Shown here: one piece after another, positions 19,914 through 64,000 of the stretch
How the letters are laid out: each line of letters starts with the position of its first letter
Numbering within the stretch: position 1 is the stretch's first letter
Assembly: GCA_000002445.1 (NCBI GenBank)
Contig: CP000068.1
Span: 1,280,001 to 1,344,000 of the forward strand
Direction: 5' to 3'
Origin: Trypanosoma brucei
Lineage: Eukaryota
DNA length: 64,000 bases
Notes under the pieces: generated by a model
The model's input: only the letters and a program-made list of their open reading frames with translations
What the model was told of the DNA's origin: nothing
The model's database searches: none
Translations under genes and position numbers: made by a program

Positions 19914-22900
19914 AACTAATTAAAATGAATTAGCAAACGAATACGAGGGGGAAAAAAATTAATGCAACACGAAAACAAACAAAAAAAAAAACACACACAC
20001 ACACACAGGCACACAAAAAAAAAAAAAGTACACCTAAACTGTCACACAATAACGTAAATAGTCAGGTGAGGAGATAGCTACAGTAACAACAATAACAAAA
20101 AAAAACAGTGTAAATAATAATTATTATTACTATTACTTACTATTACTACAAAACGATAAAAGCACTACTAATCCGCCTTTTCACTTTAATTTGTTTTTGA
20201 GCGGCACAACCTAAATGAGATAAAATATATTTTTAAAAAAAAATAAAAAAAGTAAAGGGAGAAAAAGGAAGGAAAGGGGCGAAGAATACAGCGAAGGATG
20301 AAGAATGAAACGCAAATAACATATAAGGAATCTGAAGGAGAATATTTGCAATGGAAATATTGAATAAAGGCAACCAGTGCATATGGAGCAACTTTGAATG
20401 GCCGCTACCCGAAAAAGGGGGACATCATCTCTCAAGTTTCATGTAAACAAGAGGGAAGAACAGACGGAGATACACCACAATAACAGAGAAAAGAAACGAA
20501 AAAAAAAAGAGCGAGGGAAACAGTAAATAAATAAGAAAAAGAAAAAGAAAGAGAAAGAAAGATGGAAGAAGATTGAGAAGCAGCAGTCACCACAGGTAAT
20601 ACTGTAAGCTCTCCAACGGGTAAGGAGAGGGGAAAAAAAAAGAAATGATATGATATGAAAAAGAAAAAGAAAAAGAAAAAACTACATCAAAAGCAAAAAT
20701 AATTTTTTCCTTTTCTTCGGTCAACATAGAATCGAAAGACTTGTAAACAATAGAGTGGGGAAAAAGGGGGGAAAAGGGCTCTTTCCTCAGTGGACACAAT
20801 AAGGGAGATGAAAAGAAGAAAAGGGGGAAATACAAAAAAAAAAGGAAAAAAGAGGGGGAAAGTACGAAGAAAGATGGAAACAAATATTTTTATTAAAAAA
20901 AAAAAGAGCGAAAGCAGGGACGGGAACAAGTTACTGAAATAATAGTGAAAGTGCTGATAAAGCAATAAAGAAAGAAAGTGACAATAATTGAAGGTTGTAG
21001 AGCCCGAAAAGGATGAAAAAGATAAACTTCCTATTTTACGCGGCGTTCGCCAAGGCTAAACACAAACAAAAAAAAGTAGTAATTTTTTTACATTTTCAGA
21101 AGGGGGGAAAATAAAAAGAAAAAAACAACTAAAAGAAAAAGATGAAGGCAGCGTCACCACCCCAAACGAAACATACGACGGTTTATTTGATTTAGTGACA
21201 GAACTCAAACTTACCTTTCGTTTTCGTATCCTTCTCCCTAAGCCGACAGCGCCGTATAATTTCTTCAATAAATATTTTGCATTTGTTTGCATTGGATTTA
21301 ATTTTAGTTGGTGCTGTTGTTTTGATGTTGTTGTTGTTGTTGTTTTTTTGTCTTTCGCTTTTAAATTCGTTTTGAACCTCCCTCCTTCCTTTTATGTACT
21401 TGTTTGCTCAATTCTCTGATGCCTTTTTTTTTTCTTCCTTTTTCGCTGTCTCTACCAATTGCCTCTTTTTTTTTGTTTATCTTTCATTGCATTCATTCAC
21501 ATGTCTGTCCCTTCTTTCAGCATTAACTTTATCCCTCTCTCGTGTTTTTCCTTCTCTTTCTTTTTTTTAAAAAAAGGGGGAAAAAATATTTGTTTCGTCC
21601 CCTTTTTATAATAAAAATATTCTCCAGCACAAACCCAACTTTCTTCTGCCTTCTGCCTTCCGTCTTTCCTGATCTGATCTGATCTGAATGTGATTTGTAT
21701 AATGTTTTGCAGTTTGTTTGTTTTTTGTTTGTTTGTTTGCTTGTTTTTTTATTCTATTTTATTTTATCTGTTTTATTTATTGTGCTCGATTTGTTTGCTC
21801 ACACATTCACTCGTCAAAATATACATATCAATGTGAATATATGAATACGTTACGTATGTTTATATATAAATAAATATAAATATAAACAGATGTATGCTTG
21901 TTTGTGTTTGTGCTACACAACATAATGCGTTAATATGTGCCCCTCCCCCTCTTTCTCTCTCCTTCTCTTTCCCATCCCCACGCCTTTTTTATTTATTATT
22001 TATTTTTTTATTTGGGGGGGGAGGGCTTCTTTTTATATTTATTTTTTTAACTTTTGCATCTACTTTCCTCATGTTTAACATCCTCCTTCTTTCCCCAACC
22101 TCTTCTACTTGACTCATTATCTTATTGACTTCGTTTCTTTGTTGTTGTTTTTTCTTCTTTCGTTTTTCCTGTTTTTTACAAACTTTCCTTCTTCTCCTTT
22201 TTTAAAGAAAAAAAAGGAAATTGTTTTTGCTTTTGCTTCCGGGTTCTTTCTTATTGGTCTTTTTTTTTCTTTTAGTTCTCTCTTTATATACACCCCGAGT
22301 AGACAACACAATTAAAACCATACGCGGAAGGAAATCGCTGGAATATTTCAGGTATATCTAACTCGGAGGGAAAAAAAAAAAACAAAACAGAGACAGCGCG
22401 AGAGGTGGACGCTCTCACAAAATAAATAAATTATTTAAAAAAAAAATATATATATATATATAGGATATGCCTCACAAATTTAAAAAAAAGAAAGGAGAAA
22501 CGAAAACAAACTGAACACGACCACATGTGGACGCCAGCTCACTGAGGGAAATAACAATAATAATAATAATAAGATAAAAAGAAAAAAAAGAAAAAAAAGA
22601 AAAAAAGAAAAAAAAGAAAACCATAAAACGAAGGCCACACATGTAAAACATCCCCTGCACAACACCGTCTGCTTCCTGTCACATCTTCCTCCTTTTCTTT
22701 TCTTTTCTTTTTCTTTAAAAAAGGAATTTCTTCATCATGTCTATTTATTGCTCTGTTTAAATGCATGATGCGTCACAAACACACACAAATACGCACGCAT
22801 TTAAAGTCACCAAAAGCTCAACACAACAGAGAAAAAATGCAGAATGGGCGTCCAACAGAAAAACGGTAGCAAACACACAAGGAATAAGTACCCTCATTTC

Positions 22901-36710: not shown

Positions 36711-39227
36711 TTATGACTTTGTCTCGGTTGTTTGGCCCCCAAGCATCCCTTGCGCAGTGTTAAACAGGTTCACCGGCGTTTTTCCATCTGTGATCAAGTA
36801 GCCCTTCAACCCCAACCCACCGAGCAGTTTCGCTTGCATTTCGGGGCCGGCCTGTGCGATCGATACAAGCGTCTGTCTCCCAATGGCACTTACCATCCGT
36901 TGAATCCTCTCAACTTCCGTTTGGGCGAGCTCACGGGCCTTTACGATTTCCAGCTCGTTCTGACGCTTTGCAAACTCCAGCTCGAGATCTTGCTGTTGCT
37001 TTTGCTTTGCGAGGTCTGACGCCGCTGTGATACGGAGCGCTTTTGCCCTCATCTCCGCTTGCTTCAGCTCTGTGTCCGCCTCAATGAGAAGTGACTCCGC
37101 CTTCGCCTTCGCCTCCGCTACTGCCTGCCCACTCGCCTGAACAACCTCACTCTGCGCCTGCAGTTCAAGCCACTGTGTTTTGGTCCGCTCCACTTCAATT
37201 TTATCGACGAGTTTCTGTCGCTCAAGCCTTCCCCGAGCCTCCTGGTCCTTCCGCTCCTTCCCGTGCCGTGCCGCAGCCTCCTGGGATTTGGTCGTTATTT
37301 CTATGGCCAGCTGCACAGATTTCTGTAGACTGTCCCGCGTCTTCGCATCAGTGGGTTCCACTGATTGAATGTCAATGTTCGTTACGACGAGGTTGTTGGC
37401 AGAGAAGCGAAGTGAGTTCCTCACATGGCCATTGCCATCGCGACCAAACACAGCCTCACGAATTATCTTCGCAGAATTACGATGGAAAGAGTCAAAGTCC
37501 TCCGCAGCAACAGCCCCACGAACGCGAGACGCGATAGTTTTGCAGCAATCCCCAACAAAATCAGGCACGGAAAATATCTTGGCATCAGGATTCTCTCGAT
37601 TCACATCAAAATGCCAGTTATACGAAAGACTAAGTTGCAAACGTGCATGGTCAGAGGTTTCCACAACAATCGTGTCACTGGAGAAACGAGGACCCAAAAA
37701 GAGCTGTAGAGCGAGAAGCGAATTTAGTGCTTTTGGTTTTCCCCCACTGAGTGACAATACAGTAAACTCCTCATCGGGGGATAGCATAACAAGGTTCGGA
37801 CCGAGCACTACGCGAGGTTTCTTTTGCTTGTAATCATAAATCTGTACCGCCGCGTTGTGTTGAACGTTGAAGCGAATGATACGATGTTTCACACGCGAAC
37901 TGGTAAAGTTAGGATCCCGCTCACTGCAGCGGCAGCACCCCGTAGGGCATGCAAGAAGTTCTTCCACATCAGGAGAAAGATCCTTCTCCCATAGCACCTC
38001 GTGCTCCTTGAGCATGTAAGGCTCTCCGATAACAGTGCGGACTTCACCCGTAGTGGTGTTCATGACATAAATGCCTTCATTTTTGTCCAGTGCAATCACA
38101 CCTCGTCGCTCCAGCACGCAAACATCCACTCTAGGAATATACTCAGTGGCACCGCGGAGCAGCCATTTCTCACCCGGCATGCGAACAGTGCCGCCACAAT
38201 CCTCAAACTTTTCCAAAGCCTGCAAAAGTAGTGCCTCATTCTTCCCGATAGCGTTCATTGACTGAACCTCACCCACCAGACTCTCACCGGGCCTCAGGAA
38301 AAAGCTGCACTCCCCTTTGCGGACTTCTCTTTTACCGAACTGGTTGATGCCTTCATCTCCAACAGGGTCCTTAACGATACAGTACTGGTTCTTGCTTAAT
38401 ATAATGGCATTCACGGTGGCGGTGATTACCTCGTTTACATCAGGGATGTGCGTAGAGGACATTTTATGCGTAATCATCCACTGCTCTCCTGCTTTACGTG
38501 CTTTACCGTACACATCAGTAAAGTTGCGTAGAGCCCTTAGGTGGATTGCCTCCTTCTCAGTCAAAACAGCACCCCTAACGTAACTCACAAATTCCTCCTC
38601 GTATGCAGGAAGATAAGCACCACTGGTTCGATGCAGCCACTCTTCCCCAGCCACACGCGCAACGCCTTGTCGGTCAGTAAAGTTGAGCCGCGCCCGGAGC
38701 TTAATGGCAGTGTTTGATTCCACAGTAAGTGCCTCAACCTCCCCAAGCTCCTCCACTTCCACGCGGGGAATAAATGTCTGCGGGCCCTCCACAATCCATT
38801 GTTCACCCGCCCGCACTGACACCCGTGTACTATCGACAAAATCACGCGTACAACGAACATGGTAACCTTTGTTGGAGGGAATCACCTTTAACTTGAAGAG
38901 CCATTCCCCATCAACAGTTAAAAGCTCTTCCCCAGGCAATAGAGGGAACGGAGGTTGTTCAAATCGTATTTCTTTCTCGCCCATGCGTAACTGCACCTCC
39001 TCACTTTCCCCGACCTTTGGGATGTTGTCTTCGCCACGCACGCACGGGTTCTGCACAACACAATAGTGGCCTGGAGGCACCACGACACATTGCCGCGGTT
39101 CGAAAAGACATCGTTCGTGCTCCTTACGTGTGTACACCTGCGGCCCCAGCATACATTTAGTGACATTTGTGTTGTTGTTCAGCAAATGAACGTAAAAATG
39201 ACGTTTAATTCGTATGATATCACTCAT
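36711..39227 (-). CDS. MVP: major vault protein (MVP)
   Basis: ~838 aa with N-terminal vault repeat region and a characteristic C-terminal coiled-coil/cap-helix ending ...[43 protein letters not shown]. This closely parallels the MVP C-terminus ([38 protein letters not shown]). Confidence 0.9.
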
Positions 39228-40575: not shown

Positions 40576-43113
40576 TCAGTTGCCTCCACTCCCAACATGC
40601 CCAACGTTTCTACACAAGTCTCGAATTTTCTGGTCACGCTCTTGAAGTTCTCTATGCAGCTGCTCAACCTTCTCTCTATGTCCCGCTGTCATTCCGCGAA
40701 TCTGTTCCCTGTAGCTCGATTCAATCACATCTGCCTTGATCTGTATTTCCTTCAATCTTGCAGAAGACGAGATCATGTGGGAGCACTGGCTCCTCAGCCC
40801 CTTTGTTTGAGCCGAAAGATCTTCCTGGCGCCGTTCCAGGGTCACAATGGTGTCACGTAATTCGGAAGCGCGCAACGCAATCCTTTCCATTACGGTGTAC
40901 ATGTTGTTCAAGTGCATCACCATTTCAACCGGTGGGATTAACTGAAAGTGTGACTTAGCCTCCCGAACCTTGATGGTTAAAGAGCGAATAGAACCATCAA
41001 TTACCCCAAATTCCTCCTGTGCTGCCGAAATCGCTCTCTTCAGCGCCACACAACGACCCTCCATTCCTTTCAGCTCAGATTGAAATAAAAATTTGTTCAA
41101 ATCGCCTAAGGGGTCTGTCTCACAGACATCCGCATCCCCAGCATCGTTGAAAGACCTGTTCTTTAAGGTTTCCGCAAACACTTGGAAAAATTGGATGGGT
41201 TCCTTTTCATACGAGTTCTTTTCTGCATCAAAAAATGCAGTGGGGATCACACCCAGTTCTCGCACCACTAAAGCACCCAGTTCATGCTTCCGCGGACCAC
41301 ACCTCTCCCATACGGCTTGGGAAACCAGAATTTGCCCTCCGCGGGCCGTGGAGCACGCGTGTACAGTCTGAGATACCGCACGACCGTAATAGTGGCACCG
41401 GTAAGAATCGCCAACCGGTATAGACAGCGGCTCCACAAATGTATCACCTGTGTGAACCGCCATCGCCAGGCGCAGCCCACGAAATACCACTTCATTTGTC
41501 CCCTGACAACGCACCTCTGAGCCCCATGAGCTTTCGAGAAGGGACTGCGACCAAGGGAGCGTCATCAACCATTTTTGGGTCTCCGTGCAGAAACGACAGG
41601 CCGCTACCGGATCGTCGAAGGCGAGCAGCATTGATGTCCCATCACAGTAGCACTCATACGCACCGTACTGAGCCATTTTAGGGCGCAACACGCAGTTCAT
41701 CAAAGATACGGCAGCTTGTGCCTTTTCCGCATCCTCGACCCACATAAGGTCACCATTAAAGACGCGCAAGCATGCGAACACAACGTTCCTTTGGGGTGGG
41801 GGAACCGAACCGGAGTGCGATATGGCGTTCTCGAGATCATCACAGAAAAAATACAGTCGAGAAAGCGCACGATTTAAAGAAACTGATGCCTCAGAGCACT
41901 TCCCCTCAATCTCCACCAGCGCACGCGAAAGTCGCTCTTGCTTGGCATCGAGCTTCGCCAACAAACAGTCAAAATCTGATTCCTTCGAAACCGGCGCTTC
42001 ACAGTTGGTGTCTATGGTTTTCAGTTGTAGTAAGCGAGTAACAATTCGCTCAACCACCAGTTTTGCTTCTGGATCCTCGACAATACACCGTGGGGCGTAG
42101 AGGAGGGCGGCCTCCTGTACCTCCAAACTGTGAGGTTCAACAGCCTGCTCCGGGGCACAGCTAACAAACGCTGAGTAGATATCATCTAAGATGCGAAGAA
42201 TGTATATATCCCACTGCTTGAACCGCTGCTCTACTTCCTGAGAGGCCGCGTTTGCCAAAACGAGCCGCTCCGCGGCCGTCGCCGCCTCCTTCACAGCTTC
42301 TTCGCGCTCTTCAGATAGCTTCTTCTTTTCATCCTCCAGTCGCGCACGCATGTCACCGATGCGCCGCTCCGTTTCCGTAGACCTTTCCTTGTACTCAGAC
42401 TCAATGCGATGTACGAGGTTCTTCATAAGCGCCTGACCTTCGGTGTGACGCTCCTCCGCGACCCTGTTTGTAGCACGAACGGCCTCTAGCTCTTTTGTCA
42501 GCTCTTCTACACGAGCATTACAAAGGCTCTCCACATGGTCCAATTCTTGGGCGGCTGCTTTTTTAACATCATCCACCTGCTGTTGGTATATTTTTGTGAG
42601 GTTTTCAACGCGCTCATTGAGAACACGGCATTCGTTTTTCAACATCATCTGCTCCTTCTCGTGTTGCAACTTTTGCATGCGTAATTGATGCTCCATTGTT
42701 TCTTTGAGCTTGAGATGTTGCTCATTCTCACCCTTCAGCAGTCCCTCCAACCGCTTAACTTCGTCCCGTAGTTCGCCAATTTCCTCTTTAGATTTCTCAG
42801 TCATGGCGAACTCTATACACTTCGCCTCATGTTTCGCGTTCCCCAGTTTCGTCCGCAGTGACGAACACTTCCGCATCAGCGCCTCGATTTCCTTCTCTCT
42901 TAGTGCTATACTCATAACGTGACGCTGCTCAGCTGTTGTACGCCACGGTCGCTCCAATTCCGGTCGGTGAAAAAGTTCTTCACCCCGCTGTACCCCCGTG
43001 GCCGTTTTGAGGTATGTCCCGGGAGTACAACCGCCCCCATACACACCGACAGCTCGTGCAGCAGACGCTGACTCAGGGGTCTCCCACTTGTTGGGTGGTG
43101 CCTCGTCGGACAT
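40576..43113 (-). CDS. coiled-coil protein with a degenerate class III adenylyl/guanylyl cyclase homology domain (pseudo-cyclase); start trimmed to MSDEAPPNKWE
   Basis: The segment encoded at ~41295-41795 aligns with class III cyclase catalytic domains (e.g. the GRESAG4 catalytic core): VVFACLRV..., ...YGAYECYCDGTSMLLAF..., LRLAMAVHTGDTFVEP...GDSYRCHYYGRAVSQTVHACSTARGGQILVSQAVW. The first metal-binding Asp of the F(T)D(I) motif is replaced (FACLR) and the GDS Asp is displaced (DGTSM). Flanked by long heptad-rich regions. Confidence 0.6.
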   Translation of the reverse strand: MSDEAPPNKWETPESASAARAVGVYGGGCTPGTYLKTATGVQRGEELFHRPELERPWRTTAEQRHVMSIALREKEIEALMRKCSSLRTKLGNAKHEAKCIEFAMTEKSKEEIGELRDEVKRLEGLLKGENEQHLKLKETMEHQLRMQKLQHEKEQMMLKNECRVLNERVENLTKIYQQQVDDVKKAAAQELDHVESLCNARVEELTKELEAVRATNRVAEERHTEGQALMKNLVHRIESEYKERSTETERRIGDMRARLEDEKKKLSEEREEAVKEAATAAERLVLANAASQEVEQRFKQWDIYILRILDDIYSAFVSCAPEQAVEPHSLEVQEAALLYAPRCIVEDPEAKLVVERIVTRLLQLKTIDTNCEAPVSKESDFDCLLAKLDAKQERLSRALVEIEGKCSEASVSLNRALSRLYFFCDDLENAISHSGSVPPPQRNVVFACLRVFNGDLMWVEDAEKAQAAVSLMNCVLRPKMAQYGAYECYCDGTSMLLAFDDPVAACRFCTETQKWLMTLPWSQSLLESSWGSEVRCQGTNEVVFRGLRLAMAVHTGDTFVEPLSIPVGDSYRCHYYGRAVSQTVHACSTARGGQILVSQAVWERCGPRKHELGALVVRELGVIPTAFFDAEKNSYEKEPIQFFQVFAETLKNRSFNDAGDADVCETDPLGDLNKFLFQSELKGMEGRCVALKRAISAAQEEFGVIDGSIRSLTIKVREAKSHFQLIPPVEMVMHLNNMYTVMERIALRASELRDTIVTLERRQEDLSAQTKGLRSQCSHMISSSARLKEIQIKADVIESSYREQIRGMTAGHREKVEQLHRELQERDQKIRDLCRNVGHVGSGGN

Positions 43114-43593
43114 AAATTTAAAGTAACTGTCTAAACGGCAGAACTTTGTCCCAGCGTTAAATTGACAAAGACATGAAAAAGGAAGGATGCTACATGCACA
43201 CTGAATAAGCAGAAAAATTTGGCTCACTAACAACTGGTAGCGCACAGCATCTCCAACTCGGTAATCAAGAGCACTTCAAAGTACATTTGAACAAGGATAC
43301 ACATTAAAAATACGTACAGGGTCGGTGAGTGGTACCACAAATCGGAAAAAAAACAAAAAGTAAAGCATGAAAAAAAAAGACATTTACAGCAGCCGGCAAC
43401 GTAACTTGTCATGTAAAAATATCCTTTCCTTTATCACCTTGCCTTCGTCGCCTTCCTTCCAGCTGCTTCCTTTCTCTTTGCTCCTCTAGTTTCCCCGCAC
43501 ATTCTCCTCTACTTTTGCTCTTCTGTACATTCCGTGTGGGGGAAGGCTGGAACACATCCAAAAACAGCTTCCTTGAAAACTTCCCCATTCTGT

Positions 43594-45333
43594 CTACATC
43601 TCATATGGTATAAAGTGAACCTCGAGCGTCTTCTTCAGGCGGGAAACTTCATCTTCCGAAGAACGAAGCTCCTCTCGGCGCCGCGACTCACAAACACGCA
43701 AATCCTCCCGGAGTGCGTCAATTACCTCCTCTTGGTTGAAAATGCGGGCCTTCAGTTGTGTTTCAGTTTCAAGAGCCAGCTGCTCCCGCACCTCCATTTC
43801 GCGCGTCAGTTCAGAGATCTTCTCGGATAATATTGCTATCGTTCCCTCATGCGTCTCCACCTCCCCCTCGATCGTATTCCTGTGGGGGATGAAGTGCGCG
43901 TCAAGGAGGCGGCGCAGTCTCGCGATTTCCCCATCTTTCGCCGCCACTGCTGTATCGAGTGTGTTTTGGCTCCCTTGCAGTGTTGCTTGCAGCTGTAAGT
44001 GTTGTGATTTTAGCACTGCGATGTCTGAAAGAAGTTTCGCCTCCCGTTCTTTTGCCCCGTCCTTACTTTGTGCGACTAGCTGGCGCGCAGTGTCAAGTTC
44101 CCTTTCTTTCTCCTTTGCCTCTTCGGTCGTCCGCGATATTTCGATCTCATAAGCCCTTCGCTCGCTCAGAAGTTTTTGTTGAAGCTGGGAAGTGGCAGTC
44201 CGGTTATTGGCTATTTGGGCGTTAAGAAATGTTATTTTGTCGAAGTTTTCTCGTTCCTTCCGCCGCAACAAATGCTCAAGTTCCTCCATTCGTCTTTGAT
44301 TGCTCTCAAGCTCAACGAACGTGGCCTCCAACTCCTTTTCGAGTTTCTCCCTCTCGTTCTGCATCTCCTCGTTTTCCACAGCACGTTTTTCGTGGATGGT
44401 TTGTAGCTCTCCAGAGAGGTACTGCGAATCATGCTTGACTTGTTCCAATTGCTGCTTATAATCACGTAACACCACATCTGAGTTCATTTTTATGTCAGTG
44501 TTCTCTTTCTTCAATGCTTCTACCTCATCCTCGAACCGAGAGCACTTTGCCTCTAGCTGAAGGTACTTTTCCCTTTCGATGCTTGCCTGCCGCTGTTCCT
44601 CCTCAAGTTGCTCTTCGTAACGGCGTTTGTTTTCTTCAATTTGCGCATTGAGCATCTGCATCAAGGCGACATTTTTCCTGTCATCTGCCTCCCGTGTTTC
44701 TACAACCTCCTGCATCGAACGGTTCATCGATATTGCCTTTTCGAGTTCCCGTTGCAAACCAGCAATCGTCAACGCATGACTGCGTATCTCCCCCTCCTTC
44801 TCGTCCATACGCGCCTCCATTTTTATTCGGTACTCCGAATGATCCTCCTTCGCAACGCGCAGTTCTACACGGAGATTCTCATTATCGCACTCGATTGAAC
44901 TGATTGTTTTTTCAGTTTCTGCACGAAGATTGTTCAATTGCAACTCCGCTGTGTGCTTTTCCTGTACGAGAAGTTTCTGTTTCTCCTCCACCTCCAATCG
45001 CAACAGACCCACCTCATTCAGCAATGTGTCACGCATGAGCACTAATTGCTCAACCTGGACCTCGGATGCCATACGCTCCTCCCTTAACGTAGCAGTCAGT
45101 TGCTCCACCTTGGCCATGAGCTCCTTCACTTTTCCTTCCTTCTCACGGAGAATTCGAACCTGTTCCTCCTTCCACAGAGTTATGCGTTCCTCCTGCTCCT
45201 CTCGGTCACGGCGCTCATTCTCACGCTTCTGGATTTCCTCCCCCTCGGCTTCTTGTGCGCGGAGCTGTTGCATGCGGAGAATCTCCGCACTCACCTCCTT
45301 GTTACCCTTCTTCCTTCCCCTCTTCGGAGCCAT
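43594..45333 (-). CDS. hypothetical coiled-coil protein (579 aa) with duplicated C-terminal HFIP motif
   Basis: Almost entirely heptad/charged sequence. Two related C-terminal segments: IARLRRLLDAHFIPHRNTIEGE and VSRLKKTLEVHFIPYEM. Basic N-terminus MAPKRGRKKGNK. Confidence 0.6.
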   Translation of the reverse strand: MAPKRGRKKGNKEVSAEILRMQQLRAQEAEGEEIQKRENERRDREEQEERITLWKEEQVRILREKEGKVKELMAKVEQLTATLREERMASEVQVEQLVLMRDTLLNEVGLLRLEVEEKQKLLVQEKHTAELQLNNLRAETEKTISSIECDNENLRVELRVAKEDHSEYRIKMEARMDEKEGEIRSHALTIAGLQRELEKAISMNRSMQEVVETREADDRKNVALMQMLNAQIEENKRRYEEQLEEEQRQASIEREKYLQLEAKCSRFEDEVEALKKENTDIKMNSDVVLRDYKQQLEQVKHDSQYLSGELQTIHEKRAVENEEMQNEREKLEKELEATFVELESNQRRMEELEHLLRRKERENFDKITFLNAQIANNRTATSQLQQKLLSERRAYEIEISRTTEEAKEKERELDTARQLVAQSKDGAKEREAKLLSDIAVLKSQHLQLQATLQGSQNTLDTAVAAKDGEIARLRRLLDAHFIPHRNTIEGEVETHEGTIAILSEKISELTREMEVREQLALETETQLKARIFNQEEVIDALREDLRVCESRRREELRSSEDEVSRLKKTLEVHFIPYEM

Positions 45334-47860: not shown

Positions 47861-50641
47861 CTAATTCGATCTTTGCCTCTTTGCACCACAATTTCCCTCG
47901 TCACAGAGGTTTGAAATCAGGTTTGGTTCCCTCACACTTACTCTGCACAACGCAACTTCCATCTGTTGTATTTTCGCCTTGTCAACGGCTGTGATTTGTG
48001 CACCGGACTTTCTTGACATATCCTCTAGCATCCCCTTAAGTTGTTCAAAGCTCTTGATCCAGTAATTCACTTCTTCGTTGGCTCGATGTATCGCCTTCAT
48101 TGCCCAATCCTTTTCTTTAGCTCTGAAACATTCCGTTTCTTCGCGTTTAGCCTTTACTGCTTCCAGAGCCTTCTTATACTCTCCTTTGCGGGAAATTTCG
48201 TAGTCAAGCTTACTTCGGAGCTTCTGGGTTCTCTGCTCCAACTCGTCAACGTTACGCTTTTCAGTATCTAGTAAGCGGGAAAGCTCTCTCACCTGATCGT
48301 CTTTCTTCTGAATATCGGCAGCGTGCTGCCGCGATAGATCACTAATCTTCTCCATGAGGTTTTCACTGTTCTTTTCAGCTTTCTCCTTTTCATTCTCAGC
48401 GACGTTAATTTTCCTCGTAAGACCTTCCCTCTGCTCTACAAGAAGTTTCTCACTTCCCTCAACACGTGATTCGATTTCCCTCAACTTGAGCTCAAGGTGA
48501 GAACACATGTCCTCGGCGTTTCTTCGCACCTTTTCCAGGTGACTTAGTCTGCGCAGCAGTTCGTCGTTCTTGTTCGTGTATAACACACGATATTCCTCTG
48601 CCACAGCAAGCGTTTTCTCAACTGTCAGTGCGCTATATTGGTCAACAATATCTACAAAAAAACGTGAGAAGTGTTCTAACCAATTCGCCATCCACTGTGA
48701 CAATCTCATTCGGTCTTCAGAGTACAAAGTAGCCTCACGCAAAAGGTTTTCTGTTTCGATGAGTTTGTCAGAAAGAACCTTTTGGTTAGCGGTGCGGTCT
48801 TCATTATTGATATTCTCCCTTTCAATTTCTTTCCCCAGGAGAAAAAGTTGTTCTTTATCTCGTCGTGCACCCTCTTGGAGGTCTAGAATTTCTGCCTCCT
48901 TCGTCCTTAGTTCCTCAACCAATTCCTCTTTTCCCCGTATCAACGTACTTCTTTCAGCTTCCAAACGCAGCCGCGCCTCTGATAGACGTAATATCTCCGT
49001 ATCTTTTTGATGAGTCAACTCCTCAACTTTCTTTTTTAGTAAGTTTGTCTCCTCGTAGAAATGTGTCACTGCAGTATCGATATTGACGACAAGAATGCCG
49101 TGAATATCAAGGTTTTCATCAGCAGACTCTTTAGACAGACTCCACCTGGCAGCCTGTTCTTCGAGCTCAAGCACCTTTACCTGAAGCATGAAGTTATTCA
49201 GCTGCATTTCTTCAGTGGCAGAACGTAGCTGGGTAGAAAATTCAGAACTCTGCATAACCTTGCGATAGAGGTCCTCATTTCTTGCATTAGCTTCACCTAA
49301 CTGACCTGTCAACTTGTCAATTACCCCTCGTCTGGCGTCAATTTCAGACGTAAGATCTTTCGCCTCACGGCGCAGAGAATCAATTTTTTCTTCGTAATCC
49401 ACCCGCATGAGTACCAAATTTTCGTCCTTCGTATCCTGCATACTCTTCACTCGCTGGAATTCGGTCTCCAAGAAACTTTTTGCACTAACGACGCTCTCCA
49501 AATCCATCCTTGTTCGTTCGAGCGCACTTCGAAGCTCTTGAAGATTACTTTCCAATATTGCGGCTCTTCGGCTGCTATCGGTACGTTCTTGTTCAAGACG
49601 GTTCACATCAGCCTTCAGTTGACTGACAGACAGTTCATACTTCCGAGACTCAGCGCACTTCTCTATCACCTGATCGTTTAGCGCCGAAATCTTCGACCTC
49701 AATTCTACAATAACTTCTTGGTGTTTGGAAGAATTTTCAGAAGCATGCTCAAAATCACGACGCATTGTTTCCAGCTCCATCATAAGCAGCTTGTTTCCTT
49801 TTTCGGATTCTCGTAGGTCACAGTTTGCCTTTTCTACACGACCTTTTTCTTCAATGTTGATCAGTTTTGCCGCCTCGATTTGCTGGTTCAGTGTGGAGAC
49901 GGTGTTTTGCAGCTTCTCAATCGTGCTCTTCTGCATTCCTAACTGTACTTCGAGAGACTTTATCTCGTTGTCTTTCACATGACAAACCTCTTCCCACTTG
50001 GATTTTGCTTCCTCCAACTTGAAAACAGTTTCGTCGCGCGTATGCACATCGTTCTGCAATGCCTCGATACGGGAATGTAACAAAGTTATCTTCTTTTCCC
50101 CCTCGTGCGATAATGACTCCAATTTTGTTGTGTGGTCCTTCTCCCTCTGTAACTGCTTCTGAACTTCCTTCAGTGTGACGTTCAACTCCTTGAATTCATC
50201 CGCTAACTTCGAATAAGCAGTCCTTGATTCTTCAAGTTGTCTCTGAATGGTTTCGTTCTCGGTGATCCATTGTTTCTCTGCGTCGCACCACTTGGCTATA
50301 GAAGCATGAGCGTCACGACGAATTTGCTCCTTCTCACATTCAGCCCTAGCCGCGCGCTTCTGCTCAGCAACCAATGCAGATTGTTTTTCGGATAAGTCCT
50401 TTTGCAGGGTGTGACACCTCTCCTCTAATTTTCCCCGCTTCTTGTCGTCGTCCGTATGCATTAACTTTTCTCTACGTAGCTCAGCTTTGTCTTGTTCGAG
50501 AGTAGCTATCTGTGCTTGTTGTAACTTAACTTTTTCCTCAAGCTCACGAGTGTAAGCTTTCTCACGCTGCAGCTGAAACTCCAAATGTTTTTGGGTCCCT
50601 TTTAGCCCCTGTCTGGAATCACCTTTCGCAGGAGACTCCAT
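47861..50641 (-). CDS. hypothetical large coiled-coil protein (926 aa)
   Basis: Uninterrupted ORF dominated by heptad-like E/K/L/Q-rich sequence without motor or enzymatic motifs. Candidate cytoskeletal/flagellar structural protein. Confidence 0.6.
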   Translation of the reverse strand: MESPAKGDSRQGLKGTQKHLEFQLQREKAYTRELEEKVKLQQAQIATLEQDKAELRREKLMHTDDDKKRGKLEERCHTLQKDLSEKQSALVAEQKRAARAECEKEQIRRDAHASIAKWCDAEKQWITENETIQRQLEESRTAYSKLADEFKELNVTLKEVQKQLQREKDHTTKLESLSHEGEKKITLLHSRIEALQNDVHTRDETVFKLEEAKSKWEEVCHVKDNEIKSLEVQLGMQKSTIEKLQNTVSTLNQQIEAAKLINIEEKGRVEKANCDLRESEKGNKLLMMELETMRRDFEHASENSSKHQEVIVELRSKISALNDQVIEKCAESRKYELSVSQLKADVNRLEQERTDSSRRAAILESNLQELRSALERTRMDLESVVSAKSFLETEFQRVKSMQDTKDENLVLMRVDYEEKIDSLRREAKDLTSEIDARRGVIDKLTGQLGEANARNEDLYRKVMQSSEFSTQLRSATEEMQLNNFMLQVKVLELEEQAARWSLSKESADENLDIHGILVVNIDTAVTHFYEETNLLKKKVEELTHQKDTEILRLSEARLRLEAERSTLIRGKEELVEELRTKEAEILDLQEGARRDKEQLFLLGKEIERENINNEDRTANQKVLSDKLIETENLLREATLYSEDRMRLSQWMANWLEHFSRFFVDIVDQYSALTVEKTLAVAEEYRVLYTNKNDELLRRLSHLEKVRRNAEDMCSHLELKLREIESRVEGSEKLLVEQREGLTRKINVAENEKEKAEKNSENLMEKISDLSRQHAADIQKKDDQVRELSRLLDTEKRNVDELEQRTQKLRSKLDYEISRKGEYKKALEAVKAKREETECFRAKEKDWAMKAIHRANEEVNYWIKSFEQLKGMLEDMSRKSGAQITAVDKAKIQQMEVALCRVSVREPNLISNLCDEGNCGAKRQRSN

Positions 50642-50879: not shown

Positions 50880-51644
50880 TCATTGTGGTTTTTTTTCTAT
50901 AGCACAACCTTTTCCCCTCGAATTCATGTAAAAATTTAAAAACAAAACCAGAAGTGAGGCATTGTACAATAATTGCAGCAGGTTCCACCCTAAAGTAAAC
51001 TGAGTGTCAAGTAACGTGACCAAAATAGCATGAAGAATACAAAGAGAAAACTGCAACATTTGAATCTTGGTTAGCAGAAATTTAAACGGATTCCTATACC
51101 CCAAAGATGTCCAGAGGTAGTGTGAATACATCAAAAAATGAACGGAAGAATTTATCCAAGTCCCAAAAAACGCCGTCCCGTTTGCAAGTCCGTTTCTCAA
51201 CAAAATTCCCCAAATAAGACCAATCGTACAGTGATGATATACGTGCAAGAACGACAGTTGATCCTCTTTTTTCTTGCAAAGTATGAAAACGGTATCCAGC
51301 ATATCAATGTACTTGCTGCAGTAGTGAACGAACATCCAAAACTCTATATCCGGGCAAAATTTACCACTCAGGTTAAAGACGCCATTTTTCAAAGGCGGTG
51401 ACAGGTTAATCGCCATTGCGGCCGATAGGCATATCTGGAGCACGTTGTAAACGACCAACACCCTACTCATGTTTAAGGCGCGCCTGCCCCGCATAATACT
51501 TCTCATGACAAACACGACAAACAAATAAAGTAAATGTCCCAATACTAACGCGTGCCATGAAACCAAAGGATTAAGATATGGGAAAAAACAGAGAGAACCC
51601 ACTCCCTGACATGCCGAAGCATCTCTGCAGTCCATCATGATCAC
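50880..51644 (-). CDS. fatty acid elongase (ELO family); first gene of the minus-strand polycistronic unit
   Basis: ELO signature LHVYHH (HxxHH), KxxxxxDT box (SKYIDMLDTVF), and multiple predicted transmembrane segments. From memory, an ELO paralogue (ELO4) lies in this chromosome-5 neighbourhood in T. brucei; this is not verifiable here. Confidence 0.8.
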   Translation of the reverse strand: MIMMDCRDASACQGVGSLCFFPYLNPLVSWHALVLGHLLYLFVVFVMRSIMRGRRALNMSRVLVVYNVLQICLSAAMAINLSPPLKNGVFNLSGKFCPDIEFWMFVHYCSKYIDMLDTVFILCKKKEDQLSFLHVYHHCTIGLIWGILLRNGLANGTAFFGTWINSSVHFLMYSHYLWTSLGYRNPFKFLLTKIQMLQFSLCILHAILVTLLDTQFTLGWNLLQLLYNASLLVLFLNFYMNSRGKGCAIEKKPQ

Positions 51645-61255: not shown

Positions 61256-64000
61256 ATGGAGAATAGTCCCGTGCCGTGTATCAACCAGTTTCGCTGCCGC
61301 CTTACCATGTCATCGTTGTCGCTACTTTTGGTGTTTCTTGTGGTGGTTATGCCGCCGGTGGAAGCTTTGGATAATATAACGGTAAAGGTTTACTCACTTC
61401 TGTATCACCCTTTTGTTGGGAGGAGACTAATCGATTCTATGAATGCCGGTTTCAACGCGTCAATGGCAGCCCGTCAATGGACCGTTGCCCCAGGCATCAA
61501 TGTTGAAGTTATCCACCCTGCATCGTATAGAATTCCGGGTCCGAGGTTCTTGCAGAGGGCAATAAATGATAACAAGGATGAATTCTTTGTTGTGGTGGGA
61601 CCGATGGGTGACGGTCAGTTGGCTGCCTCTCGTTCATTCTTGCAGAAGGAAAATTTGGTTGCATTTGCTCCATCCACTGGGGCAAGCTCTGTGCGCGGTT
61701 GGAGTCCCAACATCTACTTCCTGCGTGTGTCACCCACTGTCGAGCTTATTGCATTGATGCGTTTTGCTGTAACTCACCTGCGTTTACTACGGATCGGCTT
61801 CATGTACCTGCAGGGTCTCACCTTTGGGGATAGTGAATATGAGGTGGCCATAAAACTAATGTCTCATTTGGGACGCGAGTTATGTGGTGTTTTCACAGTG
61901 GCAAGCTCGCATGGCAAAGGTGCAGCTGACTCCGATTTTGATGCCGTGTGGGACAAGTTCGTGGTGACCCGTCCACAGGGTGTGATCATGTTTGCTCCAC
62001 CAGCAAAAGATGTGGTAAGATTTGTAGTAAAGATGCTGAATGACAGTCGTACCCAAGACGCCTACTTTCTTGCTTCTTCGGTACTCGAATTGACAATTGC
62101 CTCTTGGAGCGGCAATATTGAGGCAGCCAATACAGCACTTGATCTCGGGCAGATTGTGCTCTCGCGCACGAATCCGCTGGCGACGGACACACAATACCAA
62201 GCAATCAGGCGTTTTCAGGACGATGCGAGATCATACCTGAGTGCTAATCCGGGCGTAACTCTCTTCAGCGGCGCAGACGACTTCGAGCATCATTATGTGG
62301 ATGGGAAGCTTATGGTGTATGGGTGGATCGTTGGTGAGGTGCTGTCACAGGCCCTGAGGAGTCGTGCCTGGATTAAGGACAGGGAGACCTTCAAGAAGTC
62401 TCTGTATAGTCAACGTCGGTACGTCGTCGATGAGCTTGTGTTTGGTGACTTTGGTGGTGAGTGTGAGGGTACAGCAGGTAAGCGCGGTGCTGTGTGTAAC
62501 TGTAATCAGGGAGGAAACGTAGTGTACATCAACGTTGCTAGGAGGGATAATGTCTTGGAGGTGATACATGATGGACAGGTAGTTGTCGATTCATCACTCT
62601 GTTACCACGACGAGGTTCGGTTGCATTCCCCTGTGAATGGTTTATTGGTATTCATGCAGGATGATCCGGTTGCGCAAAATGCGGCTGAGGAAATATATGA
62701 TGGCGCCATTCCTCTCACTGGTGATGGCCGTCTGGGGCGAACTGATCGTTTTTTCTTACATATGCTGACATCAGAAACGGCTGAAGCATCCTCAGAGTTA
62801 GAGTCAGAATTGGGCACCAGGGCAGTGACGGCTGTGTTTGGAGTTGCCGATGATGCTATGCTATCCCTACAAACTACTGCTTTCATTGACCCCATCTCTC
62901 TCCTCCCGGGGTTACCTCATAGAGGGAGGAAAGTTATTTACCTATCTCCGACACTGGAGCAGCAGCTATTCGCGCTGGTAAAATATTTTGTCGGGTCAGG
63001 TTCTACGGTAGTGCACGCTGTCGTCTGCCGTGGTGATGTGGTTTCGATTGAAAGATTGCTTTATCTGATGTTGATGACTTTTGGCGGGCACATGGGAACA
63101 GTGGTAGGGCCTGATAGCAGTACAGATCTGGAAGGTTCGATGCCAGAAACCGGTGATGTGCTTGTCATAGGCCTGTCCAAGGACGACGTTGCCGTGGTAG
63201 CGTCTCACCTGGATCGTAACCCGGATGTTCGTGTCGCTGTCCTGTTCTTTGACGTAGCCCTACTATACATTGAGTTTGTCAAAGCTTTCAAGAGCAGTTC
63301 AAGCGGTGGTCGGCTTCTTTTTGCAACGAGTCTGCCTCACTGGGCAGAGGCTAACTCGACTTCGGCTACTGTACAGAAGTTTCACGCGGCAGTGCCTGAT
63401 TCGCCACGGTGGACACCTTTGTCACTGCTTGGTTTCGCGACCGGAAGATTCATTCAAACGCTGCTCTTTCATATGGACAAAGTGACACCGGATTCTATAA
63501 TCAATGCAATATATACTCTCTCGGTCGTAAACAGCGACGACATGCGGTATGGTCCGTTCGTGGAGGAGCGATGCCCTTCAACCAAAGATGCGCCGGAGGG
63601 CGGCGACCACTTCTGTGGTAAGAATTATGGTGCGAGGCGACTTTCTGTGTGGTCGATGGACCGTGCGCTGAACGCTTCGGTGGCACCGCTGACATCGGGC
63701 GCAACGCCGTCTTTGGTGTACATAGACCCGTATTCGAAGGTGTTGTCAGGCGGCCGACTTGCCGGTGTCATCGTTGGAGTTCTTTTCATTTTACTGTTGC
63801 TTGTTGCTCTTTTGCTAGTGCTTCTTTGTCTGCGCCGCAGCGCACGCGACAATGACAGCGCGCCCAAGGAGCCAGCGGACCCTGTGACGCTAATTTTTAC
63901 AGATGTAGAAAGCAGTACTGCACAATGGGCAGCACATCCCGAGCTGATGCCCGATGCTGTGGCCGCGCATCACCGTTTGATTCGCTCGCTAATCACCCAC
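61256..64000 (+). CDS. GRESAG4: receptor-type adenylate cyclase GRESAG4 (N-terminal extracellular domain, TM helix and start of catalytic domain; CDS continues past right edge). An alternative start at 61307 gives an N-terminal signal peptide MSSLSLLLVFLVVVMPPVEA.
   Basis: My own plus-strand translation is open from 61202/61256 to position 64000 without a stop, so it is absent from the ORF track. It has a hydrophobic signal peptide, a large extracellular domain, a single TM segment (GRLAGVIVGVLFILLLLVALLLVLLCL, ~63760-63830) and then TLIFTDVESSTAQWAAHPELMPDAVAAHHRLIRSLITH. This last stretch is the conserved start of the trypanosome class III cyclase catalytic domain. Confidence 0.9.
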   Translation, partial: MENSPVPCINQFRCRLTMSSLSLLLVFLVVVMPPVEALDNITVKVYSLLYHPFVGRRLIDSMNAGFNASMAARQWTVAPGINVEVIHPASYRIPGPRFLQRAINDNKDEFFVVVGPMGDGQLAASRSFLQKENLVAFAPSTGASSVRGWSPNIYFLRVSPTVELIALMRFAVTHLRLLRIGFMYLQGLTFGDSEYEVAIKLMSHLGRELCGVFTVASSHGKGAADSDFDAVWDKFVVTRPQGVIMFAPPAKDVVRFVVKMLNDSRTQDAYFLASSVLELTIASWSGNIEAANTALDLGQIVLSRTNPLATDTQYQAIRRFQDDARSYLSANPGVTLFSGADDFEHHYVDGKLMVYGWIVGEVLSQALRSRAWIKDRETFKKSLYSQRRYVVDELVFGDFGGECEGTAGKRGAVCNCNQGGNVVYINVARRDNVLEVIHDGQVVVDSSLCYHDEVRLHSPVNGLLVFMQDDPVAQNAAEEIYDGAIPLTGDGRLGRTDRFFLHMLTSETAEASSELESELGTRAVTAVFGVADDAMLSLQTTAFIDPISLLPGLPHRGRKVIYLSPTLEQQLFALVKYFVGSGSTVVHAVVCRGDVVSIERLLYLMLMTFGGHMGTVVGPDSSTDLEGSMPETGDVLVIGLSKDDVAVVASHLDRNPDVRVAVLFFDVALLYIEFVKAFKSSSSGGRLLFATSLPHWAEANSTSATVQKFHAAVPDSPRWTPLSLLGFATGRFIQTLLFHMDKVTPDSIINAIYTLSVVNSDDMRYGPFVEERCPSTKDAPEGGDHFCGKNYGARRLSVWSMDRALNASVAPLTSGATPSLVYIDPYSKVLSGGRLAGVIVGVLFILLLLVALLLVLLCLRRSARDNDSAPKEPADPVTLIFTDVESSTAQWAAHPELMPDAVAAHHRLIRSLITH

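What the first reader, a model, noticed from the sequence alone, without database searches (positions are those of the whole stretch)
40576..43113. Soluble coiled-coil protein carrying a catalytically degenerate class III cyclase domain (pseudo-cyclase), 18 kb from a genuine receptor adenylate cyclase
Residues encoded at ~41295-41795 align block-by-block with the trypanosome adenylate cyclase catalytic core. Examples: LIFTDIES / VVFACLRV; YEVKTVGDSFMIA / YECYCDGTSMLLA; LRVRVGIHTG...YYGR...ANGGQVL / LRLAMAVHTG...YYGR...ARGGQIL. The first metal-coordinating Asp is lost and the second is displaced, so cyclase activity is unlikely. The domain is embedded between ~480 and ~240 residues of heptad-rich sequence and has no TM segment or receptor domain. 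A retained but dead cyclase fold fused to coiled coils suggests a scaffold or regulator, possibly one that heterodimerises with true ACs or acts as a nucleotide sensor in a flagellar or cytoskeletal assembly. I am not aware of a characterised function for it.
Basis: partly seen in the sequence, partly recalled or inferred. Interest (0 to 1): 0.6.

Follow-up and report, generated by a model that had tools for sequence, protein, structure and literature searches.

The report
Dead cyclase at the flagellum base
This trypanosome gene (Tb927.5.4470) encodes a coiled-coil protein of the flagellum base whose cyclase-type domain has lost every residue needed to make cAMP; the loss is shared by all its relatives in kinetoplastids and diplonemids, and nobody has yet studied what the protein does.

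Summary
ORF 40576-43113 (-) encodes 845 aa and is Trypanosoma brucei Tb927.5.4470: the TrypTag tagging primers match both ends exactly. Residues 445-647 form a class III cyclase-homology domain (CHD). Pfam alone misses it (E=0.16). A profile of the orthologues hits the GRESAG4 crystal structures at E~1e-12, and the AlphaFold model matches 1fx2 (Foldseek E=6e-12, TM 0.72). All six canonical catalytic positions are replaced (D,K,D,D,N,R become R450,Y489,T493,H574,S581,H585), and the β7-β8 Lys is lost to an insertion. Twenty-nine sequences sharing the N-terminal motif (about 22 distinct orthologues: Trypanosoma, Leishmania, Bodo, the prokinetoplastid Papus, the diplonemid Sulcionema) all lack the first metal Asp. 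There is no TM segment, and heptad-rich helices flank the domain. The "displaced" second Asp is better read as the acidic residue of the KTEGD motif. The closest active relatives are non-receptor eukaryotic CHDs, not the trypanosome receptor cyclases. The cyclase 18 kb away lies across a strand switch, so its proximity probably means nothing. Published screens place the protein in the transition zone / proximal flagellum ("Inversin-like" class). No functional study was found. Most likely it is a structural or docking pseudo-enzyme of the flagellar base. Moderately interesting: a new variant of a known kind.

The parts
40576..43113 (-). Complete CDS of Tb927.5.4470 (845 aa, 95.8 kDa, pI 5.8; stop codon at 40576-40578)
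   Evidence: ORF and translation. TrypTag primers for Tb927.5.4470 match exactly at 40579-40657 and 43114-43192. 100% identical to T. equiperdum TEOVI_000208000. Mass and pI.
42940..43023 (-). N-terminal linear motif PGTYLKTATGVQRGEELFHRPELERPWR (residues 31-58), the most conserved part of the protein; proposed docking or targeting motif (inferred)
   Evidence: 68% invariant columns in 12 orthologues. Predicted disordered by AF2. A RG..LF.RP...RPWR core is kept in Bodo, Papus and Sulcionema orthologues.
42160..42936 (-). N-terminal long helices (residues 60-212 and 224-318), heptad-rich; predicted coiled-coil rod
   Evidence: AF2 secondary structure. Heptad scan above the 99th percentile of shuffles at 71-142, 156-192 and 239-300.
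41974..42159 (-). Short-helix linker region (residues 319-380) with the conserved LYAPR..EDP.AKV..ERIV.RLLQL block
   Evidence: Alignment A1; AF2 helices 329-366.
41845..41973 (-). Heptad-rich helix directly preceding the cyclase-homology domain (residues 381-423), followed by a conserved PP-containing linker. This is the same arrangement as the helix that precedes the catalytic domain in soluble/receptor guanylate cyclases and in coiled-coil cyclases with intact residues.
   Evidence: AF2; heptad scan 387-437. Foldseek alignments of >300 columns to sGC beta and GC-A chains. Shared PP motif before beta1.
41173..41781 (-). Degenerate class III cyclase-homology domain (residues 445-647). Catalytic-position codons: R450 (41764-41766), Y489 (41647-41649), T493 (41635-41637), H574 (41392-41394), S581 (41371-41373), H585 (41359-41361).
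40918..40953 (-). Conserved SHF(H/Q)L(L/I)PP.EMV motif (residues 721-732) between the two C-terminal helices
   Evidence: F723, P727, P728 and E730 are invariant. Region 721-760 is 28% invariant, against 2-8% for the neighbouring coiled coils.
40591..41109 (-). C-terminal helices (residues 669-720 and 728-841), heptad-rich; predicted coiled coil
   Evidence: AF2; heptad scan 675-778 and 782-843.

Best explanation
The gene is Tb927.5.4470. It encodes a non-enzymatic ('pseudo') member of the class III nucleotidyl-cyclase fold, built into a long coiled-coil protein of the flagellar base.

Shown here:
(a) The central domain has the cyclase fold.
(b) Both metal-binding Asp, the purine-specifying Lys/Asp pair, the transition-state Asn/Arg pair and the beta7-beta8 Lys are all replaced.
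(c) The first metal Asp is missing in every orthologue, from trypanosomes to a diplonemid. The domain and an N-terminal linear motif nevertheless remain the best-conserved parts of the protein.
(d) There is no signal peptide, ectodomain or TM segment.

Taken from the literature: tagged protein sits at the transition zone / extreme proximal flagellum, and the protein is cited as part of the transition-zone proteome.

Inferred mechanism: the flanking heptad helices form a parallel homodimer. This brings the two cyclase-like domains together in the usual head-to-tail pair, using the strongly conserved beta4-beta5 'arm'. The result is a rigid globular node in a rod, with two vestigial clefts that cannot bind the two catalytic metals and so cannot make cAMP or cGMP. 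The disordered, near-invariant N-terminal motif anchors the rod to a transition-zone or proximal-axoneme partner. The protein therefore acts as a structural or docking element of the compartment just distal to the ciliary gate. The purine-pair positions have been re-fixed as Tyr/Phe and His across trypanosomatids and Bodo, whereas the metal positions drift. This leaves open that the cleft still binds a ligand or a partner peptide.
For: Identity: the primers match exactly.

Fold:
- Family profile against PDB gives E=9.5e-13 and 5.5e-12 to GRESAG4.3 and GRESAG4.1.
- AF2 plus Foldseek give E=6e-12 and TM 0.72 to 1fx2, with more than 150 cyclase-type matches at E<=1e-3.
- In the reverse direction, the family profile hits Pfam-positive CHDs at up to 131 bits per domain.

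Loss of catalytic residues: the hexad is R-Y-T-H-S-H against the canonical D-K-D-D-N-R. Ninety-six of the other domains recovered keep K-D-D-N-R.

Ancient and constrained:
- Twenty-nine sequences carry the N-terminal motif (about 22 distinct orthologues after removing near-identical cluster members). They include Leishmania, Bodo saltans, Papus and Sulcionema, and all lack the first metal Asp.
- The CHD is 29% invariant and the beta4-beta5 arm 45% invariant. The N-motif is 68% invariant, against 2-12% for most coiled-coil segments.

Architecture: long helices and heptads flank the CHD, with no TM segment. A helix-plus-CHD arrangement like sGC and GC-A is seen in the Foldseek alignments.

Localisation:
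- TrypTag reports 'transition zone[75%]' for the C-terminal tag and 'flagellum[proximal,end]' for the N-terminal tag, and places the protein in its 'Inversin-like' class (PMC9981465 supplements).
- It is listed as a transition-zone protein, citing Dean et al. 2016 (PMC8141408 Table S3).
Against: - No experiment on activity, oligomeric state or partners exists or could be run here.
- Homodimerisation and the docking role of the N-terminal motif are inferences.
- The localisation comes from high-throughput tagging. The two termini gave slightly different annotations, and the C-terminal signal was seen in only 75% of cells.
- The AF2 model is a monomer with modest global confidence (mean pLDDT 69.6, pTM 0.35).
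- UniProt-derived names call the protein 'adenylate cyclase'. This seems to be automatic naming but was not checked against the rule used.
- Distant orthologues (P0042, P0043, P0071, P0072) keep the second metal Asp (GD), so the degeneration was stepwise. Residual nucleotide binding cannot be excluded.
Confidence: 0.7

Rival explanations
1. Negative regulator or chaperone of receptor adenylate cyclases. The dead domain would pair with the catalytic domain of GRESAG4/ESAG4-type cyclases as they pass the transition zone, holding them as inactive heterodimers or gating their entry into the flagellum.
For: - The fold and the dimerisation arm are conserved.
- Trypanosome receptor cyclases need dimerisation for activity (review PMC6027212).
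- The protein sits at the flagellar gate, through which flagellar-membrane cyclases must pass.
- Because it lacks both halves of the active site, any heterodimer would be catalytically silent. This is a coherent inhibitory mechanism.
Against: - The pseudo-domain resembles non-receptor CHDs much more than the receptor cyclase (131 against 49.6 bits).
- Its own coiled coils favour self-pairing.
- It is absent from the held supplementary files of the CARP3 / multi-cyclase regulator study.
- The family exists in Bodo, Papus and a diplonemid, so it is much more widely distributed than the lineage-specific expansions of receptor cyclases in trypanosomes.
- The genomic proximity to a cyclase gene is across a strand switch and is not seen in the related locus L001.
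Confidence: 0.1
2. Non-catalytic ligand sensor. The remodelled cleft would bind a nucleotide (ATP, cAMP or another purine) or another small molecule and transmit this to the coiled coils, in the way degenerate GGDEF domains act as receptors.
For: - The two purine-specifying positions are not decayed. They are re-fixed as Tyr/Phe489 and His574 (H574 is invariant across the 12 aligned trypanosomatid-type orthologues and is also His in Leishmania and Bodo). By contrast the metal positions vary freely.
- Other pocket-lining blocks (YEC.SDG, HYYG, GGQ) are invariant.
- Some distant orthologues keep the second metal Asp.
Against: - Without either metal Asp, the Asn/Arg pair or the beta7-beta8 Lys, the triphosphate-binding machinery is gone.
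- The Y/F-H pair is not kept in Papus, Sulcionema or the environmental orthologues.
- No binding data exist, and conservation could equally reflect a protein-protein interface.
Confidence: 0.12
3. An unconventional but active cyclase, as the database name 'adenylate cyclase' implies, using non-canonical residues.
For: UniRef names the T. brucei, T. congolense, T. vivax and some Leishmania proteins 'adenylate cyclase', and others 'Guanylate cyclase domain-containing protein'. The fold is intact.
Against: - All seven canonical catalytic positions are lost.
- The first metal position is unconstrained, with at least seven different residues.
- Established knowledge of class III cyclases is that two-metal catalysis depends on both Asp residues.
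- Single-sequence Pfam scoring falls below the gathering threshold.
Confidence: 0.03

Closest known systems
Catalytic domain of T. brucei receptor adenylate cyclases GRESAG4.1 / GRESAG4.3 (PDB 1fx2, 1fx4)
   Same: Same class III cyclase fold. These are the best PDB matches by sequence profile (E~1e-12) and by structure (TM 0.72). Both share an insertion between alpha3 and beta4 at the position of the trypanosome 'delta-subdomain', and a P..R.F motif after the domain.
   Different: - No signal peptide, ectodomain or TM helix.
- All catalytic residues are replaced.
- The insertion is much shorter.
- Sequence similarity is lower than to non-receptor eukaryotic CHDs (49.6 against up to 131 bits).
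Soluble coiled-coil cyclases with intact catalytic residues (e.g. Phalansterium solitarium EP01116_P007479 = P0089; environmental P0105, P0112) and multi-CHD proteins of diplonemids (Hemistasia P0020, Diplonema japonicum P0023)
   Same: - They carry the closest active-looking CHDs (100-130 bits per domain).
- P0089, P0105 and P0112 share the coiled coil - PP linker - CHD - L.P..L..R.F - coiled coil layout.
   Different: - They keep the D/K/D/D/N/R set and score strongly on Pfam Guanylate_cyc.
- They lack the N-terminal RGEELF.RP...RPWR motif.
- None is characterised, and their localisation is unknown.
Helix-plus-catalytic-domain module of soluble guanylate cyclase and receptor guanylate cyclase GC-A (e.g. 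PDB 6jt2, 9bcs)
   Same: A parallel coiled-coil helix leads directly into a dimeric CHD. Foldseek aligns more than 300 columns, spanning helix plus domain. sGC also carries one degenerate pseudo-site.
   Different: sGC and GC-A retain one or two functional active sites and have sensor domains. Here both potential sites are dead and there is no recognisable sensor domain.
Degenerate GGDEF domains and the pseudo-symmetric (forskolin) site of mammalian membrane adenylate cyclases (own knowledge, not tested here)
   Same: They set a precedent: nucleotidyl-cyclase-type folds that have lost catalysis are kept as ligand-binding or regulatory modules.
   Different: Those examples either keep a nucleotide or ligand site with known residues, or are paired with an active half-site. 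Neither is shown here.
Inversin compartment of vertebrate primary cilia (INVS, NPHP3, NEK8, ANKS6; PMC7202064)
   Same: A short compartment immediately distal to the transition zone. TrypTag labels Tb927.5.4470 and five other proteins 'Inversin-like' on the basis of position. One class-mate, Tb927.10.4720, is an ankyrin-repeat protein.
   Different: There is no sequence relationship to any inversin-compartment protein. The label describes position only, and the trypanosome flagellum is motile.

Membership tests
Class III nucleotidyl cyclase homology domain (fold level; Pfam PF00211) | Significant profile similarity to known CHDs | tested here: met
   The single sequence is below the Pfam cut-off (11.9 against 21.9 bits). 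However, phmmer against PDB gives E=1.3e-7 and the orthologue profile gives E=9.5e-13. The family profile also retrieves Pfam-positive CHDs at E down to 1e-40 per domain.
Class III nucleotidyl cyclase homology domain (fold level; Pfam PF00211) | Beta-alpha-beta-beta-alpha-beta core fold with a beta4-beta5 dimerisation arm | tested here: met
   In the AF2 model residues 445-647 have block pLDDT mostly ~74-91, with a dip in the 561-570 loop. Foldseek gives TM 0.72-0.82 (target-normalised) to many cyclase crystal structures.
Catalytically competent class III cyclase | Two metal-binding Asp residues (beta1 and the beta2-beta3 turn) | tested here: not met
   These are R450 and T493 in T. brucei. 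The first Asp is absent in all 29 sequences carrying the N-terminal motif. The second is absent in trypanosomatids and Bodo.
Catalytically competent class III cyclase | Substrate-specifying pair (Lys/Asp for ATP, Glu/Cys for GTP) | tested here: not met
   The pair is Y489 (Y/F) and H574.
Catalytically competent class III cyclase | Transition-state Asn and Arg, and the phosphate-binding Lys/Arg of beta7-beta8 | tested here: not met
   These are S581 and H585. The Lys/Arg position is replaced by a 6-10 residue insertion.
Catalytically competent class III cyclase | Measured cyclase activity and dimeric state | not testable with these tools
   This needs recombinant protein. Only monomer prediction was available.
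Trypanosomatid receptor-type adenylate cyclase (ESAG4/GRESAG4) | Signal peptide, large periplasmic-binding-protein-like ectodomain and a single TM helix upstream of the CHD | tested here: not met
   The N-terminal 444 residues are a disordered tail plus long helices with no Pfam domain. Maximum hydropathy is 1.31. By contrast, the true receptor cyclase at 61307-64000 shows all three features.
T. brucei transition-zone / 'Inversin-like' proximal flagellum proteins | Being the gene product Tb927.5.4470 that those data sets localised | tested here: met
   Both TrypTag primer pairs match the window exactly, at the ends of this CDS.
T. brucei transition-zone / 'Inversin-like' proximal flagellum proteins | Localisation at the transition zone or just distal to it | not testable with these tools
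   Taken from PMC9981465 supplements and PMC8141408 Table S3, which cites Dean et al. 2016. The Dean et al. paper itself is not held.
Pseudo-enzyme (conserved, catalytically dead homologue) | Loss of catalytic residues shared across orthologues, together with purifying selection on the domain | tested here: met
   The first metal Asp is lost in all 29 motif-bearing sequences, spanning Kinetoplastea and a diplonemid. The CHD is 29% invariant among 12 orthologues (trypanosomatids plus two unnamed assemblies), against 2-12% for most coiled-coil segments. dN/dS was not computed because no orthologue DNA was aligned.

The most novel reading that the evidence does not exclude
An ancient dead cyclase is a built-in component of the ciliary gate, predating the split of kinetoplastids and diplonemids. 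It uses its remodelled purine cleft (Tyr/Phe489 and His574), or its dimerisation surface, for one of two jobs: to sense a nucleotide, or to capture the catalytic domains of receptor adenylate cyclases as they enter the flagellum. That would couple flagellar cAMP signalling to the transition zone. It would be a new type of cAMP-pathway component in organisms that lack the canonical effectors.
Probability: 0.12. Interest if true: 0.75.

Novelty: new variant of a known kind. Interest (0 to 1): 0.45.

Why it matters
Trypanosomes carry dozens of flagellar receptor cyclases. cAMP controls their social motility, tsetse transmission and host immune evasion, yet the downstream and regulatory components are largely unknown and unconventional.

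A conserved, fully degenerate cyclase domain sitting at the flagellar base is a concrete, testable candidate for a structural or regulatory element of that system. It also shows that the database name 'adenylate cyclase' for this gene family is almost certainly wrong.

The family additionally gives an evolutionary marker: a pseudo-enzyme fixed before kinetoplastids and diplonemids diverged. Its closest active relatives are coiled-coil or multi-domain cyclases of other protists, not the parasites' own receptor cyclases.

Tried and rejected
- **Pfam on the single protein and on all 12 orthologues.** Only sub-threshold Guanylate_cyc hits (best E=0.062), so Pfam alone would have wrongly 'refuted' the finding.
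- **Word-indexed homologue search, with the protein and with the alignment.** Only 14 hits and no Leishmania or Bodo. This was a limit of the index; the exhaustive profile search found them.
- **Search with the N-terminal 57 residues for other carriers of the motif.** The tool found no candidates, so this is uninformative.
- **Literature.** No main text mentions Tb927.5.4470, its old ids or the presumed Leishmania ids. No paper on a trypanosome pseudo-cyclase was found. No 'TZP9x' name was found. The Dean et al. 2016 paper is not held. The gene is absent from the supplements of the structure-based annotation paper, and from the final 51-protein list of the axoneme-asymmetry paper, although primers for LmxM.05.0050 are listed there.
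- **Functional link to the neighbouring receptor cyclase.** Rejected: opposite strand, across a strand switch, and not present within 8 kb in the syntenic locus L001.
- **Functional link to the adjacent PAR4 gene.** The gene order is conserved. Trypanosomatid synteny is generally conserved and transcription is polycistronic (own knowledge), so this is not evidence of shared function.
- **tRNA and Rfam scans of the window.** Nothing found.
Full report
**What is at the coordinates.** The minus-strand ORF 40576-43113 encodes 845 residues beginning MSDEAPP. The GTG-started extension to 43245 listed by the ORF finder is only mechanical. The protein is 100% identical to T. equiperdum TEOVI_000208000 and to a UniRef cluster of three T. 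brucei-group sequences named 'adenylate cyclase'.

The TrypTag tagging primers published for Tb927.5.4470 match the window without mismatch. One pair covers 40579-40657, ending at the last sense codon. The other covers 43114-43192, ending one base before the ATG. The gene is therefore Tb927.5.4470 with the annotated start.

Its neighbours fit chromosome 5:
- a major vault protein at 36711-39227 (Tb927.5.4460);
- the 579-aa coiled-coil PAR4 at 43594-45333 (Tb927.5.4480);
- an ELO-family elongase at 50880-51644.

**Is the cyclase resemblance real?** Yes.
- Pfam on the single sequence is below threshold (Guanylate_cyc 11.9 bits against a cut-off of 21.9, E=0.16). None of the 12 orthologues does better than E=0.062.
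- phmmer against PDB sequences hits the T. brucei GRESAG4.3 and GRESAG4.1 catalytic domains at 1.3e-7 and 1.7e-6.
- A profile of the 12 full-length orthologues raises these to 9.5e-13 and 5.5e-12.
- An AlphaFold2 model (mean pLDDT 69.6) shows a beta-alpha-beta domain at 445-647, with block pLDDT mostly ~74-91.
- Foldseek against the PDB returns 1fx2 and 1fx4 first (E=6e-12, target TM 0.72). Soluble and receptor guanylate cyclases, Rv1625c, Rv1264, CyaB, Cya2, Ma1120 and rhodopsin-cyclases follow, with 155 matches at E<=1e-3.
- In the reverse direction, a profile of residues 296-748 searched against 1.84 billion representative proteins finds 3162 proteins at E<=1e-3. The non-orthologous ones tested are Pfam-positive cyclases.

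**Catalytic residues.** I aligned all recovered domains to an HMM of the domain. I then read the six canonical positions using GRESAG4.1 as the ruler, taking the standard class III assignments (two metal Asp, Lys/Asp for adenine, Asn/Arg for the transition state) from established knowledge of the family.

| Position | Canonical | T. brucei | Orthologues |
|---|---|---|---|
| Metal 1 | D | R450 | R/S/G/F/C/T/A |
| Adenine | K | Y489 | Y/F |
| Metal 2 | D | T493 | T/V/L/A |
| Adenine | D | H574 | invariant in trypanosomatids and Bodo |
| Transition state | N | S581 | mostly S |
| Transition state | R | H585 | H/Y/S |

Ninety-six of the other domains retain K-D-D-N-R. A MAFFT alignment with active-looking relatives shows the same substitutions. 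It also shows that the beta7-beta8 Lys/Arg is replaced by an insertion.

It is a retained acidic residue, not a relocated metal ligand.

**Architecture.**
- AF2 predicts a disordered tail (1-59), then helices at 60-212, 224-318, several short ones, and 381-423.
- The domain follows, and then helices at 669-720 and 728-841.
- A simple heptad scan scores 71-142, 156-192, 239-300, 387-437, 675-778 and 782-843 above the 99th percentile of shuffles, with nothing inside the domain.
- There is no TM candidate: maximum Kyte-Doolittle(19) is 1.31.
- The flanks are about 444 and 198 residues.

**Distribution and constraint.**
- Full-length orthologues at 52-61% identity occur in T. congolense, T. vivax, T. 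grayi, T. theileri, T. melophagium, T. conorhini, T. cruzi and T. rangeli. Angomonas and Strigomonas orthologues are 40-44% identical.
- The exhaustive search adds Leishmania (Mundinia species cluster), Bodo saltans CUG92242, the prokinetoplastid Papus ankaliazontas, the diplonemid Sulcionema specki and several environmental sequences.
- All share an N-terminal motif, RG..LF.RP...RPWR. Twenty-nine sequences carry it (about 22 distinct orthologues after removing near-identical cluster members), and all lack the first metal Asp. The more distant ones still keep the second (GD), so the degeneration was stepwise.
- Among the 12 closest orthologues, the N-terminal motif (31-58) is 68% invariant, the domain 29% and its beta4-beta5 arm 45%. 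Most coiled-coil segments are 2-12% invariant.
- The order Arf-like GTPase, PAR4, this gene, vault protein is conserved in a distant orthologue's contig.

**Closest active relatives.** Per-domain scores against the pseudo-domain HMM reach 100-131 bits in two groups. The first is single-CHD proteins of other eukaryotes, including coiled coil-CHD-coiled coil proteins such as one from Phalansterium. The second is individual domains of four- to six-CHD proteins of diplonemids (Hemistasia, Diplonema japonicum). The trypanosome receptor cyclase GRESAG4.1 scores 49.6 bits. The domain is therefore not a recent derivative of the parasite's receptor cyclases.

**The neighbouring cyclase.** A receptor-type cyclase starts at 61307 on the plus strand and runs off the window. 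It has a signal peptide, a large ectodomain, a TM helix and the PVTLIFTDVESST catalytic start. It lies 18.2 kb away. However, GC skew changes sign near 54 kb and no long ORF lies between 51.6 and 61.3 kb, so it belongs to a different, divergent transcription unit. No cyclase lies within 8 kb of the orthologue in locus L001. I treat the proximity as coincidental.

**What is already known.**
- TrypTag records 'transition zone[75%]' for the C-terminal tag and 'flagellum[proximal,end]' for the N-terminal tag.
- It groups the protein with five others as 'Inversin-like' among flagellar sub-domains (PMC9981465 supplements).
- The APEX2 proximity-proteomics paper lists it as a transition-zone protein, citing the Dean et al. 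2016 transition-zone proteome. Its supplementary protein list names the gene 'hypothetical protein, conserved' (PMC8141408).
- Primers for C-terminal tagging of LmxM.05.0050 appear in a 2025 study of axoneme asymmetry. I infer from synteny that LmxM.05.0050 is the Leishmania orthologue. The protein is not in that study's final list.
- I found no text that discusses its cyclase domain, its degeneracy or any phenotype.

**Mechanism.** The shown facts are the fold, the dead active site, the ancient conservation, the soluble coiled-coil architecture and the identity with a protein localised to the flagellar base.

I infer that the heptad helices make a parallel homodimer, which pairs the two domains head-to-tail through the conserved arm. 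The helix-plus-domain module of guanylate cyclases works this way, and Foldseek aligns it over more than 300 columns. The dimer has two clefts that cannot hold the catalytic metals, so it cannot cyclise nucleotides. The near-invariant disordered N-terminal motif is the likeliest anchoring element. The protein is then a structural or docking node just distal to the ciliary gate.

Two further readings remain open:
- **Heterodimer with receptor cyclases.** A heterodimer could only be inhibitory, because the pseudo-domain lacks both halves of the active site.
- **Non-catalytic ligand binding.** The purine-pair positions are re-fixed as Tyr/Phe and His in trypanosomatids and Bodo, while the metal positions drift.

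Neither has direct support.

**Verdict.** The gene is a known but functionally uncharacterised transition-zone / proximal-flagellum protein. What appears to be new is the recognition that it is an ancient, fully degenerate cyclase-fold protein family, mis-named 'adenylate cyclase' in sequence databases. I rate it a new variant of a known kind, with interest about 0.45.

Noticed in passing
window 43594-45333 (-): The adjacent upstream gene is a 579-aa, entirely coiled-coil protein with no Pfam hit. It corresponds to PAR4 / Tb927.5.4480, a paraflagellar-rod component. The order Arf-like GTPase - PAR4 - pseudo-cyclase - major vault protein is conserved in a distant orthologue's contig (L001).
   Followed up: partly
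window 61307-64000 (+): A receptor-type adenylate cyclase (signal peptide, large ectodomain, TM helix, canonical PVTLIFTDVESST start of the catalytic domain) is cut off by the window end. It lies beyond a divergent strand-switch region (about 52-61 kb) that has no ORF of 250 aa or more and where GC skew changes sign.
   Followed up: partly
window 42940-43023 (-), residues 31-58: The motif PGTYLKTxTGVxRGEELFxRPxLERPWR is the most conserved stretch of the protein (68% invariant). It is predicted disordered and is kept from trypanosomes to a diplonemid. It has no known counterpart, and a search for other carriers failed for technical reasons.
   Followed up: partly
proteins P0019, P0020, P0022, P0023, P0026: Diplonemids (Hemistasia phaeocysticola, Diplonema japonicum) and environmental relatives encode 1400-2300-aa proteins. 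Each matched the query profile in four to six stretches. Pfam Guanylate_cyc confirmed two to four domains in the four that were scanned, and the tandem domains look canonical. They are among the closest active-looking relatives of the pseudo-domain.
   Followed up: partly
window 47861-50641 (-): A 926-aa ORF with no Pfam hit. A 915-aa gene is called at the edge of the related locus L001, on the far side of PAR4 from the pseudo-cyclase gene; it may be the counterpart of this ORF, and it carries a weak CCDC39 (axonemal ruler) Pfam hit.
   Followed up: no
window 20001-22000: A marked G+C trough (0.33, against about 0.47 for the rest of the window) lies between two minus-strand genes.
   Followed up: no
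window 36711-39227 (-): A complete major vault protein gene (Vault repeats plus shoulder domain), corresponding to Tb927.5.4460. It is one of the trypanosome MVP paralogues described in PMC12547018.
   Followed up: no
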